This document shows positions 44,801-47,800 of a DNA stretch of 64,000 nt, in pieces. The position numbers were made by a program. The stretch lies in assembly GCF_054482595.1 (NCBI RefSeq), contig NZ_CM137008.1; one strand, given 5' to 3'. Each line of letters opens with the position of its first letter. Within the stretch, counting starts at the first letter, position 1.

Positions 44801-47800
44801 GCTGGCATTCGCATCAAAGGAGAGGAGCATGGAAATAAAACCAGAAGATGAGTTAAGTAATATTGTTTTATTTCCGGTAAAAGAGGATGACCCACGTAAT
44901 CAGGTTAATTTTCTTTATGAGCCATCGGAAAGACCATACTGCCATCACGCTTCTGTCCGGGTTGACGAAAAAGAGCGTCAGGTCCGCTGTAAAATCTGCG
45001 GTGCAGTTGTGGAGCCATTTGACTGGATGCTCTCTGTGGCGAAAAGAGAAACCAGACTGGCAGATGATGTAAAACTATTGCGCCAGGAGGAACAGGAAAG
45101 GCGAAAAAATATAGAAAAGCTAATTCAGATTGAGCGTAATGCGAAAGCACGGATACGCAGGGTGACAAAATCCAGAACTGAATAATTAAATTTAGCACTG
45201 TTAAAAATTTAATCCTTAACCGGAGGGATTTCTGCACCCTCAGAACAGCAGGAGGCCACCCGAAAGGGTGGTAGTGAAATGCGAAAGTTCAAAATAATTA
45301 TTGAAACGGGAATAGCTGGTGGAGATTTTGAGGATGTATTCGAAGTGGACGATGACGCAACACCTGATGAAATTCATGACGAAGCAAAAGAAATTTTCTT
45401 TAACTACTGCAATTACTCATATCACGAAATAAAAGACGAAGAGGAAGAACAAAATGGCTGATTTTGGTTCAACTAAATACAACGTCAGTTTTGAAGAATG
45501 GCATGAACTGTTAATGGACTATGCAGAGTTACGTGGTGGAAGTGCTGCTGATGCTGAAGCCTGGCGTGATGACTACGAAGCAGGAAAAACTCCGGTCGAA
45601 GCATATTGTGATGAGTGGGGCGATGAATGAGCGAGATTAATTATCAGGAAGGGCATGAAACGGCAGGGCAGGCAAAACCAGTTGCATGGCGATATCGCTA
45701 CGTGAAAAAAGGCGTTACGGACTTTCAGGAGAAGATGTGGGTTGGTGACTGGAAATATGTACCGACAAAAGAGGGGTGCAACGACAGGCCGGGCTATGAG
45801 ATTCAGGCCTTATTCACTACCCCGCCAGTCCCTGTGATATCAGAAGGACTGGTTAAAGCCGTGCGCTTTTATGAACAGGTAAAGCGTGAGAATCCACCAG
45901 TCGAAACAGGAGCATGGAAAGATGCTGTTGATTGGGTACTCAAAGAGGCCTGCTGTGCTGTCATTCTGGGTAAAGCCGACAATCCACTAGCATCCAGTAA
46001 TCAGGTTGGCGAATTAACAATGTGGGTTAAACGACTGGTCAGTCAACTGAAAAAAGCTAATCCAGACTGCAAATTACCGGAGATGGCGATGGATTACCTG
46101 AAACGAAATGGACTGATAAGCGTGGAGGATGTTTTACGATGACCTGGCCTGAGGCATTTACAACGGCAGGAATCGCAATGGCTGTGGCGCTGGTGGTGTA
46201 TTCGATTTGCCGCTGGGGATAAAAACGGTTTGCGGGAAAAGGAGAGTTAAGTAGAATTGCAGCGGGTGCTTGAGGCTATCTGTCTCAGGCATGAACACCA
46301 AAAGGCAGATAGAGAAAAGCCCCAGTTAACATTACGCGTCCTGCAAGACGCTTAACATTAATCTGAGGCTCAATCTATGAACGGCAAATCTAGGTTAGCC
46401 TCTTACGTGCCGAAAGGCAAGGAGAAGCAGGCTATGAAGCAGCAAAAGGCGATGTTAATCGCCCTGATCGTCATCTGTTTAACCGTCATTGTGACGGCAC
46501 TGGTAACGAGGAAAGACCTCTGCGAGGTACGAATCCGAACCGGCCAGACGGAGGTCGCTGTCTTCACAGCTTACGAACCTGAGGAGTAAGAGACCTGGCG
46601 GGGGAGAAATCCCTCGCCACCTCTGATGTGTCAGGCATCCTCAACGCACCCGCACTTAACCCGCTTCGGCGTTTTTTCCGTTGATTAACTCTAGTTATTA
46701 GAGAACCGAACTTTTATTGATGGGGCAGGGAGATGAAGAAACTTGTTTTAGTCGCAGGTGTAATGATTGCAACAGTAATGTTGGGAGGGTGTGCAGCAAA
46801 GGTCGATCCAGCGTTGAAAGCAGAAGCAATGAAGCCACTAACATGTAATGATGAAAAGCAATGTGACTTTTATTGGAAACGAGCGCAATTCTGGTTGGCT
46901 AATAATTCCTCATGGAAAATTCAAACGGCGACAGACACGCTAATTTCCACTTATAATCCCTCTCCAAATAGTCCATTCCTCGCTTATCAGGTGAGTAAAA
47001 TGCCAAATGAAGATGGATCCTCAAGAATTTTCATCAAGCCTTTTTGCGATAATATGTTTGGCTGTCAACCAAACCCCTATCAGGCAGTTGTTTCCTTTAA
47101 AAACTTCGTTAAAACAGGGCAGTAGTGTATAGCTTGGACGATAAATTATTAGTGAAAACGCCGTAAACCCTCACCCAATGTGGACTAAGTCTATCAAACA
47201 TGACTGTGATGATTAGTCCGTAGTTGTTGCCTATGAAATCTGGATTGAGTCAGGGTTTAATCCAATAATTATTCTATCGTTCCTTTACAAGTCCGGTATA
47301 TTACTTTCAGTTTGTTTTAGCATACCCGCTTCGGCGGGTTTTGTTTTTTCCTGGCATTCTGGTTTACAATTCGCACGCCAGCCTGAACAACTGGCACCTG
47401 CTGCGCCAGCAGAGACAACCGATGGCGCACGATACCAAATTACACAATTCTGATGATTCTGCCGTCTTTGCCAGCAGGCACGGGCGGCGTTCCCGCACTT
47501 TCAAATCTGACTGGTTCCAGCATGACCCATGTACTGAAGAACAGGCCGAATGGCTAATTCATAACTATCGCAGACGCGGATACGAGATTAAGAAAGCCCT
47601 CAGCCTCGATTATCGTCACTGGATAATCTATGTCAGGCTCCCTTATTCCGAACGCCCACCGCGCCCATCCCGCACATACCAGCAACGGATCTGGAGGTAA
47701 CGTGCGGATATTACTTCGACCTGTTCTGGTACCGGAACTCGGGCTGGTGGTCCTTAGGCCGGGCCGTGAATCCATGCAAGTATTTCATAACCCTCGAGTG

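What the first reader, a model, noticed from the sequence alone, without database searches (positions are those of the whole stretch)
46223..46700. hok/sok-like type I toxin-antitoxin locus inside the prophage
A 51-aa Hok-family toxin lies in a long structured leader with an in-frame upstream extension (mok-like) and 3' stem-loops; the antisense Sok RNA would be encoded opposite the leader. It can stabilise the prophage or abort infection.
Basis: partly seen in the sequence, partly recalled or inferred. Interest (0 to 1): 0.45.

Follow-up and report, generated by a model that had tools for sequence, protein, structure and literature searches.

The report
Intact hok/mok/sok toxin-antitoxin in prophage
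This is an ordinary, complete copy of the well-known hok/sok "host killing" toxin–antisense RNA module (the hokD/hokW type). It sits in a lambda-like prophage of E. coli, and the same 521 bases occur unchanged in many sequenced E. coli genomes.

Summary

**What is there**
- Window 46230-46677 holds a complete hok/mok/sok type I toxin-antitoxin locus.
- The 51-aa ORF (46434-46589) matches Pfam HOK_GEF (82.9 bits, E 1e-23) and is 100% identical to E. coli K-12 HokD (RelF).
- An in-frame 70-aa mok ORF starts at 46377.
- The leader 46264-46439 matches Rfam RF01794 (112 bits, E 9e-25).

**Regulatory structure**
- The mRNA 5' end (46264-46275) pairs with the 3' end (46639-51). This is the fold-back inhibition that defines the family.
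- A 3'-shortened mRNA is predicted to refold.
- Both folds are kept across 68 distinct related sequences.

**Antisense RNA**
- Sok maps to about 46385→46315 on the minus strand.
- Its -10 element (46391-46397) is identical to the element whose mutation abolished sokW antitoxin activity in phage Sp5/933W.

**Context**
- The locus lies between the replication region and the Q antiterminator region of a Qin-like prophage integrated at tRNA-Ser.
- The same 521 bp are 100% identical in many E. coli chromosomes, where the gene is annotated hokD.
- They are 93% identical to the experimentally characterised hokW-sokW.
- K-12's own hokD is a truncated remnant. This copy is intact.

**Verdict:** already known, low interest. 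The only mildly new point is that the Sok 5' tail / mok N-terminus segment is hypervariable among otherwise near-identical loci.

The parts
46230..46257 (+). Predicted hok promoter: -35 TTGCGG (46230-46235), 16-nt spacer, -10 TAGAAT (46252-46257). This places the start of transcription at about 46264.
   Evidence: Read from the sequence. The position fits the first base of the full-length Rfam RF01794 match. The segment differs from 933W at only one base over 46230-46263 (alignment). It was not found by the strict consensus scan. Inference only; no experimental mapping.
46264..46677 (+). hok mRNA: 5' end at about 46264. The 3' end is not mapped. It lies between the end of the fbi element (46651) and the T-run 46672-46677 that follows a weak CCGCUUCGGCG hairpin.
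   Evidence: Rfam match starts at 46264. The fold of 46264-46680 has z -4.8. Homology with K-12 hokD ends at 46677. The terminator scan was negative, so the 3' end is inferred.
46264..46275 (+). 5' element GGGUGCUUGAGG (tac region). It pairs with the 3' fbi element in the full-length mRNA. In the 3'-shortened mRNA it pairs instead with AAGCCCC at 46317-46323.
   Evidence: Folds. fbi helix: 99.1% of cells paired across 68 distinct sequences, with a U-A to C-G double change in R1-type plasmid loci. Alternative helix: 100% paired but invariant.
46315..46385 (-). Sok antisense RNA gene (about 71 nt). It has a 14-nt single-stranded 5' tail and a long hairpin followed by a U-run. It is complementary to the mok ribosome-binding site (GAGG 46365-46368) and to the mok start codon (46377-46379).
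   Evidence: Coordinates transferred from the annotated sokW of phage 933W through the alignment. Fold has z -5.6. K-12 sokC is annotated in the equivalent place and strand. The 3' end may extend a few bases further, as in sokC.
46392..46420 (-). sok promoter: -35 TTGCCT (46420→46415), 17-nt spacer, -10 TAACCT (46397→46392). The start of transcription is at G 46385.
   Evidence: Read from the sequence. The heptamer TAGGTTA (46391-46397) is identical to the one replaced by CCGGCTC in the sokW 'pro-less' mutant, which lost antitoxin activity (primers YO-421/YO-422). The region 46392-46438 is the best conserved stretch in distant plasmid hok loci.
46377..46589 (+). mok reading frame, 70 codons, in frame with hok. 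Translating it carries ribosomes through the sequestered hok ribosome-binding site.
   Evidence: ORF list. MokW of 933W and MokC of K-12 have the same layout. Related loci have mok in other frames, so only its translation appears to matter.
46434..46589 (+). hok toxin gene, 51 aa: MKQQKAMLIALIVICLTVIVTALVTRKDLCEVRIRTGQTEVAVFTAYEPEE. GGAG at 46421-46424 is its ribosome-binding site.
   Evidence: Pfam HOK_GEF 82.9 bits. PHROG 251. 100% identical to K-12 HokD and 47/51 identical to HokW. Annotated hokD (WP_000813254.1) in identical E. coli loci.
46572..46575 (+). TACG motif at the Tyr47 codon. This is the site where K-12 hokD mRNA is A-to-I edited by TadA (Tyr to Cys).
   Evidence: Sequence. Editing of hokC, hokD and hokE at this aligned position is reported in PMC5630033. 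Invariant in alignment A2. Editing of this particular copy was not tested.
46597..46618 (+). Conserved G+C-rich 3' UTR hairpin (GGCGGGGGAG AAAU CCCUCGCC).
   Evidence: Folds. In alignment A2 five of its ten pairs show changes on both sides (helix 17).
46639..46651 (+). fbi (fold-back inhibition) element CCUCAACGCACCC, complementary to the mRNA 5' end.
   Evidence: Sequence. It closes the minimum-free-energy structure. Covariation as described for the 5' element.

Best explanation
Window 46230-46677 is a complete hok/mok/sok type I toxin-antitoxin module of the hokD/hokW subfamily. It is carried in the early-right (nin-like) region of a Qin-like lambdoid prophage integrated at tRNA-Ser.

**Mechanism, inferred from the anatomy found here and from published work on plasmid R1 hok/sok and Sp5 hokW-sokW:**
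1. A weak promoter makes a stable hok mRNA of about 390-415 nt.
2. The 5' end of that mRNA pairs with its 3' end. The mok and hok ribosome-binding sites are buried, so the full-length RNA is neither translated nor bound by Sok.
3. Slow 3' trimming removes the 3' partner.
4. The 5' end then pairs with AAGCCCC (46317-46323). This frees the Sok-target hairpin and the mok start region.
5. While the prophage is transcribed normally, the short-lived Sok RNA (46385→46315, minus strand) pairs with the mok start region. This blocks mok translation, and therefore the coupled hok translation, and the duplex is degraded.
6. When Sok synthesis stops, mok and hok are translated. The 51-aa Hok peptide inserts in the inner membrane and collapses the membrane potential.

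**Most likely role in this setting**, by analogy with hokW-sokW: it helps lysis and phage release after induction. Killing of cells that lose the prophage, or that are infected by another phage, is a possible additional effect.

**Shown here:** presence, integrity and conservation of every sequence element, and both alternative folds.
**Inferred:** expression, processing, toxicity and biological role.
For: **Toxin**
- Pfam HOK_GEF 82.9 bits.
- 100% identical to K-12 HokD and 47/51 identical to HokW.

**Leader and folds**
- Rfam RF01794 at 112.4 bits, full length.
- The full-length fold is closed by 5'-3' pairing, z -4.8.
- The 361-nt truncated RNA refolds into the Rfam-type 5' structure with a free target hairpin, z -5.2.
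- Across 68 distinct related sequences, 94.5% of cells are paired. 26 pairs have changes on both sides, against 4.5 ± 1.6 in shuffles and 4-14 with slid partners. The truncated fold gives a similar result.

**Sok**
- Coordinates mapped from the 933W annotation.
- It folds as a 14-nt tail plus hairpin plus U-run, z -5.6.
- The sok -10 heptamer is identical to the one whose mutation removed antitoxin activity in Sp5.

**Distribution**
- The 521 bp are 100% identical in many E. coli chromosomes, annotated hokD. Related sequence is present in 4942 of 5426 complete genomes.
- 93% identical to 933W/Sp5 mokW-hokW-sokW.
- 74 of 80 phage contigs that encode the identical toxin keep the intact leader.

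**Published function**
Against: - There is no expression or toxicity data for this copy.
- The strict sigma-70 promoter and terminator scan found nothing. Both promoters are sub-consensus and the mRNA 3' end is not defined.
- The NCBIfam Hok subfamily model scores below its curated cut-off (48.5 against 73), although Pfam and PHROG pass easily.
- Chromosomal hok loci tested by Pedersen and Gerdes did not mediate post-segregational killing (as summarised), so an intact sequence does not guarantee a killing phenotype.
- There is no PADLOC defence-system match.
Confidence: 0.93

Rival explanations
1. The locus is a structurally intact but functionally silent relic, like the chromosomal hok loci of E. 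coli K-12. On this reading it is carried along with the prophage without affecting host or phage.
For: K-12 hokD in Qin is a truncated copy: homology with the window starts only at 46420, just before the hok start, with relBE upstream. 6 of 80 phage contigs with the identical toxin have lost the leader. Chromosomal hok/sok loci tested earlier did not show post-segregational killing or rifampicin activation (summarised).
Against: Here every regulatory element is present, including the exact sok -10 element shown to be needed in Sp5. Paired positions are kept by double changes across relatives. 74 of 80 phage copies keep the leader. The 93%-identical hokW-sokW is active.
Confidence: 0.15
2. Its main role is addiction: post-segregational killing of cells that lose the prophage by excision. 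That would stabilise the prophage.
For: This is the classical role of plasmid R1 hok/sok (established knowledge; summarised). The differential-stability architecture, a stable folded mRNA against a short antisense RNA, is fully present.
Against: No direct evidence exists for prophage copies. Chromosomal hok loci tested earlier did not give post-segregational killing. In Sp5, HokW was produced on RecA-dependent induction and increased phage release. That points to a role during the lytic cycle rather than after loss.
Confidence: 0.25
3. Its main role is defence: abortive infection against superinfecting lytic phages. Host transcription shut-off would deplete Sok and release Hok.
For: [quoted passage not shown]
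Against: There is no PADLOC match. The preprint found no enrichment of hok next to defence systems. The effect reported for R1 is small and was measured at high copy number. Nothing has been tested for the hokD/hokW type.
Confidence: 0.2

Closest known systems
hokD (relF) of the Qin cryptic prophage, E. coli K-12
   Same: The Hok protein is 100% identical. DNA from 46420 to 46677 is 98% identical. Both sit in the same kind of prophage, Qin-like with DicF/dicB. RefSeq names the identical gene in other strains hokD.
   Different: The K-12 copy lacks everything upstream of the hok ribosome-binding site: the hok promoter, the 5' tac element, the sok gene, the mok start and the sok -10. relBE sits in that place. 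The window holds the complete, presumably ancestral, form.
mokW-hokW-sokW of Stx2 phages 933W / Sp5 (E. coli O157:H7)
   Same: DNA is 93% identical over 462 bp. The order and spacing of promoter, leader, sok, mok, hok, 3' hairpin and fbi are the same. The sok -35 and -10 are identical. [quoted passage not shown]
   Different: There are four amino-acid differences in the last eight residues of Hok. Mok codons 2-5, and therefore the Sok 5' tail, differ: MNGKSR against MLNTCR. The sequence diverges after 46661. The position in the prophage genome also differs: between the replication genes and Q here, and near the far end of the 933W map there.
hok/sok (parB) of plasmid R1 and R1-type plasmid loci
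   Same: The architecture and the Rfam family are the same. Both have the 5'-3' fold-back pairing, with a compensating U-A to C-G change. The sok-promoter / hok ribosome-binding-site block 46392-46438 is conserved.
   Different: The paper reports only 44% protein identity between HokW and R1 Hok. The window type has a 16-17-nt extension of the Sok/target hairpin (46332-46349). R1-type loci have a longer first hairpin and mok out of frame with hok. The replicon is a plasmid rather than a prophage.
hokC (gef)/mokC/sokC of E. coli K-12
   Same: mok is an in-frame extension. sokC is annotated opposite the mok start. The Rfam match is 118 bits.
   Different: IS186 lies just downstream of hokC, and no 5'-3' closing helix is predicted. 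The Sok hairpin is shorter. It is a chromosomal, non-prophage locus.

Membership tests
[quoted passage not shown] | Small (about 50 aa) hydrophobic toxin that matches the Hok/Gef profile | tested here: met
   Pfam PF01848 at 82.9 bits against a cut-off of 22, covering profile positions 1-42 of 42. PHROG 251, E 2.8e-33.
[quoted passage not shown] | Overlapping upstream mok reading frame with its own ribosome-binding site, which reads through the hok ribosome-binding site | tested here: met
   70-codon ORF 46377-46589 with GAGG at 46365-46368. The layout is homologous to the annotated mokW and mokC.
[quoted passage not shown] | cis-encoded antisense RNA gene (Sok), with its own promoter, opposite the mok translation start | tested here: met
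   At sequence level only. Maps to 46385→46315 by alignment with the annotated sokW. Folds as a tail plus terminator-like hairpin, z -5.6. Promoter at 46392-46420, with a -10 identical to the element mutated in PMC8621323. The strict promoter scan was negative.
[quoted passage not shown] | Conserved leader structure (Rfam RF01794) | tested here: met
   112.4 bits against a gathering score of 59, model positions 1-157 of 157. The model matches the hok-sense strand, as it does in K-12 hokC and in 933W.
[quoted passage not shown] | Long-range pairing of the mRNA 5' end with its 3' end (fold-back inhibition) | tested here: met
   46264-46275 pairs with 46639-46651 in the minimum-free-energy fold. 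99.1% of cells are paired in 68 sequences, with one compensatory pair.
[quoted passage not shown] | Refolding after 3' processing that exposes the Sok target and the mok start | tested here: met
   By prediction only. The 361-nt RNA folds with 46264-46271 paired to 46317-46323 and a free-standing target hairpin. The structure is kept across relatives. Processing itself is not testable here.
[quoted passage not shown] | Hok is toxic and Sok neutralises it | not testable with these tools
   Shown for the 93%-identical hokW-sokW (PMC8621323), not for this copy.
[quoted passage not shown] | Post-segregational killing, or another killing phenotype, on loss of transcription | not testable with these tools
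   Literature only.
NCBIfam NF007279 (Hok family toxin, subfamily model) | Score at or above the curated cut-off | tested here: not met
   48.5 bits against a cut-off of 73. The model appears tuned to another Hok subgroup. RefSeq nevertheless names the identical protein HokD.
Known anti-phage defence systems (PADLOC-DB) | Match to a defence-system protein model | tested here: not met
   No family at E ≤ 0.01 for Hok or for either neighbouring ORF.

The most novel reading that the evidence does not exclude
The 23-nt segment 46369-46391 comprises mok codons 2-5 plus the bases just before the mok ATG. It encodes the single-stranded 5' tail of Sok, which is the part that first recognises the mRNA. 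This segment may be a diversifying 'specificity cassette'.

Among 65 prophage/phage loci that encode an identical Hok, it exists in at least 11 discrete alleles. Pairwise difference is 0.33 per site, against 0.04-0.11 in the rest of the untranslated regions.

If this reflects selection, each prophage lineage would carry a private Sok/target pair. Co-resident or incoming prophages could then not neutralise each other's toxin, which would resemble immunity groups.

The evidence does not exclude this but does not establish it:
- The same allele occurs up to four times in one genome.
- The four multi-copy genomes sampled all had different alleles, but about 55% of such samples would do so by chance (my estimate from the allele frequencies).
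Probability: 0.2. Interest if true: 0.45.

Novelty: already known. Interest (0 to 1): 0.12.

Why it matters
It matters little as a discovery. hok/sok is the textbook type I toxin-antitoxin system. Prophage copies (hokD, hokW) have been annotated since 1999, and one has been studied experimentally.

The result is useful for annotation:
- RefSeq records with the identical DNA annotate only the hok coding sequence, not mok, Sok, the promoters or the fold-back elements.
- The Rfam family named 'sok' actually matches the hok-sense leader. An automatic annotation would therefore place the antitoxin on the wrong strand.
- The window shows the complete form of the locus, of which the much-cited K-12 hokD is a remnant.

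The allelic diversity of the Sok recognition tail could be followed up cheaply. It bears on whether multiple hok/sok copies in one genome cross-regulate.

Tried and rejected
- **Consensus promoter/terminator scan of 46100-46800:** no sites on either strand. I rejected this as evidence of absence. The sok -10 (TAACCT) matches only 3 of 6 consensus positions, yet it is the element shown to be needed in Sp5.
- **Rfam hit as evidence for the antisense RNA:** rejected. The model matches the hok-sense strand here and in K-12, where sokC is annotated on the other strand.
- **NCBIfam:** only sub-threshold Hok matches, and nothing for the neighbours.
- **PADLOC:** nothing.
- **Pfam, NCBIfam and PHROGs for the flanking ORFs** (45627-46142, 46139-46222, 46733-47125): only PHROGs of unknown function. 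I found no evidence that they belong to the module.
- **Do co-resident copies avoid sharing a Sok-tail allele?** Four multi-copy genomes in the phage-contig sample all differed, but that is not significant. The window allele occurs up to four times in one genome. The result is inconclusive.
- **A clear intrinsic terminator for hok mRNA:** only a weak 3-bp hairpin plus a T-run at 46661-46677. IncY and R1-type loci have clear terminators further downstream.
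Full report
**1. Observation**

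The stretch 46223-46700 was read directly and its ORFs were listed.
- A 51-aa ORF lies at 46434-46589 on the plus strand: MKQQKAMLIALIVICLTVIVTALVTRKDLCEVRIRTGQTEVAVFTAYEPEE.
- An in-frame 70-aa ORF starts at ATG 46377. A GAGG lies at 46365-46368.
- The 51-aa protein matches Pfam PF01848 HOK_GEF over the whole profile: 82.9 bits against a cut-off of 22, E 1.2e-23.
- It also matches PHROG 251 'MokW-like host killing', E 2.8e-33.
- A scan of the whole window against Rfam gave a full-length match to RF01794 ('sok') at 46264-46439: 112.4 bits against a gathering score of 59, E 9.4e-25.

**2. Anatomy**

*hok promoter and 5' end.* Upstream of 46264 there is a plausible weak promoter: TTGCGG at 46230-46235, 16 nt, then TAGAAT at 46252-46257. 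It places the 5' end at the first base of the Rfam match.

*Full-length fold.* The RNA 46264-46680 folds with z = -4.8 against dinucleotide shuffles.
- The structure is closed by pairing of GGGUGCUUGAGG (46264-46275) with CCUCAACGCACCC (46639-46651). This is the fold-back inhibition that defines hok mRNAs.
- In that fold the mok GAGG pairs with GCCCC (46319-46323).
- The hok ribosome-binding site (GGAG 46421-46424) lies in a hairpin with CUCUUAC.

*Truncated fold.* Removing the last about 40 nt (46264-46624) changes the predicted structure.
- The 5' end now pairs with AAGCCCC (46317-46323). This is the 5' structure of the Rfam consensus.
- The hairpin 46324-46364 then stands alone.
- This reproduces, by prediction only, the published refolding model for R1 hok mRNA.

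*Sok.* Aligning the window with phage 933W, which carries annotated mokW, hokW and sokW features, puts Sok at 46385→46315 on the minus strand.
- That RNA folds as a 14-nt free 5' tail plus a long hairpin ending in a U-run, z -5.6.
- It is complementary to the mok ribosome-binding site and start codon.

*sok promoter.* It reads TTGCCT (46420→46415), 17 nt, TAACCT (46397→46392), with G 46385 seven bases downstream.
- The strict consensus scan reported no promoter or terminator.
- However, the primers that built the 'pro-less' sokW mutant of Takada et al. replace exactly TAGGTTA with CCGGCTC.
- That mutant lost antitoxin activity.
- The same heptamer is at 46391-46397 in the window.

*A point on Rfam.* RF01794 matches the hok-sense strand here. 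It also does so in 933W and in K-12 hokC, where sokC is annotated on the opposite strand. The hit therefore identifies the leader, not the strand of the antitoxin.

**3. Relatives and conservation**

*E. coli genomes.*
- The 521 bp 46200-46720 are 100% identical in many complete E. coli chromosomes, where the coding sequence is annotated hokD.
- Related DNA is found in 4942 of 5426 complete genomes, with a median of 2 places per genome.

*Phage records.*
- The best match is 100% identical.
- 933W, Sp5 (VT2-Sakai) and many other Stx phages are 93% identical.

*K-12 hokD.*
- The protein is 100% identical to K-12 HokD, and 47/51 identical to HokW.
- In K-12 Qin, homology starts only at 46420, directly downstream of relBE.
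- K-12 hokD therefore lacks the promoter, the 5' element, sok and the mok start. The window carries the complete form.

*Phage contigs.*
- A scan of viral contigs with the toxin found at least 574 encoding contigs. The best 80 all encode the identical toxin.
- 74 of those 80 keep the 5' leader. Six have lost it, four of them in the K-12 manner.

*Structure conservation.* An alignment of 69 sequences was built: the window, 64 distinct phage-contig variants, 933W, an IncY plasmid-prophage copy and two R1-type plasmid loci.
- It keeps the window's full-length fold in 94.5% of cells.
- 26 pairs are changed on both sides, against 4.5 ± 1.6 in shuffles and 4-14 when partners are slid by 1-3 columns.
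- The 5'-3' helix is 99.1% paired and switches U-A to C-G in the R1-type loci.
- The truncated fold is kept equally well.
- Because the structure was derived from one member of the alignment, the paired percentage is biased upward. The double changes are the informative part.

**4. Context**

Identical hok loci in E. coli strain 4/4 lie in a lambdoid prophage. The gene order runs:
1. integrase, next to tRNA-Ser;
2. exonuclease;
3. dicB;
4. repressor and cro;
5. replication genes;
6. small ORFs;
7. hokD;
8. DUF968, RusA and Q;
9. four tRNAs;
10. holin and lysozyme;
11. terminase, head and tail genes.

The window is collinear with that prophage in mosaic blocks, and 46044-52222 is 98.7% identical. 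In the window:
- tRNA-Ser is at 36108-36197;
- an intact integrase ORF is at 36250-37275;
- DicF is at 40623-40674;
- the tRNA cluster is at 50019-50328.

'Inside the prophage' is therefore correct.

**5. Mechanism and role**

The best-supported explanation is the standard hok/sok mechanism:
1. A stable, self-inhibited mRNA is made.
2. It is slowly activated from its 3' end.
3. The unstable Sok RNA blocks mok translation.
4. hok translation is coupled to mok translation.
5. The peptide, once made, damages the membrane.

The sequence elements and both folds are shown here. Expression, processing and toxicity are inferred from R1 and from hokW-sokW.

For the role in a prophage, the only direct data are for hokW-sokW in Sp5:
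- Sok disappears after mitomycin C.
- HokW appears in a RecA-dependent way.
- Deleting the locus halves phage release.

- Earlier tests of chromosomal hok loci did not show post-segregational killing.
- PADLOC has no matching model.

**6. Things seen along the way**

*(a) Hypervariable segment.* Among 65 loci with an identical toxin, the segment 46369-46391 is by far the most variable part.
- It covers mok codons 2-5 and the bases before the mok ATG, which is the Sok 5' tail.
- Pairwise difference is 0.33 per site, against 0.04-0.11 in the other untranslated parts.
- There are at least 11 discrete alleles.
- The window allele (Mok MNGKSRL...) is in 1632 of 5426 genomes, with up to four copies per genome.

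*(b) mok frame.* The mok frame differs among alleles:
- an in-frame 70-aa fusion, as here;
- a 19-codon ORF whose TGA overlaps the hok ATG;
- a +1-frame 68-aa ORF.

This fits the view that only translation of mok matters.

*(c) Editing motif.* The Tyr47 codon lies in a TACG motif (46572-46575). This is the site at which K-12 hokD mRNA is edited by TadA to a Cys codon (PMC5630033).

*(d) Longer hairpin.* The Sok/target hairpin is 16-17 nt longer than in sokC and in R1-type loci.

**7. Verdict**

Interest is low. The most novel reading not excluded is that the Sok-tail segment is a diversifying specificity cassette. The data here neither establish it nor rule it out.

Noticed in passing
window 46369-46391 (and loci L010-L089, about positions 636-660): This segment encodes the Sok 5' tail and mok codons 2-5. 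It is hypervariable among loci with an identical Hok toxin: at least 11 discrete alleles, and pairwise difference 0.33 per site against 0.04-0.11 in the flanking untranslated regions. The window allele is in 1632 of 5426 complete E. coli genomes, with up to 4 copies per genome.
   Followed up: partly
loci L024, L028, L078 versus window 46377-46589: The mok frame is not conserved among close relatives. It is an in-frame 70-aa fusion in the window. In the commonest allele it is a 19-codon ORF ending in a TGA that overlaps the hok ATG (ATGA). In others it is a +1-frame 68-aa ORF.
   Followed up: partly
window 46264-46439 (+); L003 602-754 (-): Rfam RF01794, named 'sok antitoxin', matches the hok-sense leader strand rather than the strand on which Sok is transcribed. 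In K-12 the hit is on the hokC strand, while sokC is annotated on the other strand. Automatic annotation from this family would put the antitoxin on the wrong strand.
   Followed up: yes
window 46572-46575: A TACG motif at the Tyr47 codon of hok. K-12 hokD mRNA is A-to-I edited by TadA at this aligned position, changing Tyr to Cys (PMC5630033). The motif is invariant in the 69-sequence alignment.
   Followed up: partly
window 46332-46349: The Sok/target hairpin carries a 16-17-nt extension (CGCGUCCUGCAAGACGC) that is absent from K-12 sokC and from R1-type plasmid loci. It appears as an insertion relative to the Rfam consensus. Four phage-contig loci (L028, L039, L053, L078) lack it.
   Followed up: no
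window 40623-40674 (-): A full-length DicF small RNA (Rfam RF00039, 76.7 bits). This marks the prophage as Qin-like, with a dicBF operon.
   Followed up: no
window 50019-50328 (+): A cluster of four tRNA genes lies just downstream of the Q antiterminator ORF and before the lysis genes. Their anticodons are CAT, TTT (Lys), TGT (Thr) and TCC (Gly). The CAT gene is called Met by ARAGORN but Ile in RefSeq.
   Followed up: no
window 15648-36197: Four identical tRNA-Asn genes (15648-15723, 18057-18132, 19881-19956, 35041-35116) and a tRNA-Ser (36108-36197) precede the prophage. The tRNA-Ser abuts an intact 341-aa integrase ORF (36250-37275, minus strand) and is the likely attachment site. In strain 4/4 the yersiniabactin island sits at the adjacent tRNA-Asn. 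The window matches none of that strain's yersiniabactin genes.
   Followed up: partly
window 46139-46222 (+): A 27-aa hydrophobic ORF (MTWPEAFTTAGIAMAVALVVYSICRWG). Its ATG overlaps the stop codon of the preceding 171-aa ORF (ATGA), and it ends 7 nt before the hok -35. Its C-terminal part is conserved in 933W but is not annotated there. It matches no family.
   Followed up: no
window 46733-47125 (+): A 130-aa ORF directly downstream of the hok locus, with a lipoprotein-type signal (…VMLGGC). It matches only PHROG 16082 of unknown function, and is annotated as a hypothetical protein in RefSeq.
   Followed up: no
L001 125-213 (+) (phage 933W, upstream of L0142): An Rfam sRNA-Xcc1 match (69.1 bits) in the 933W flank. 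There is no counterpart among the window's gathering-level Rfam hits.
   Followed up: no
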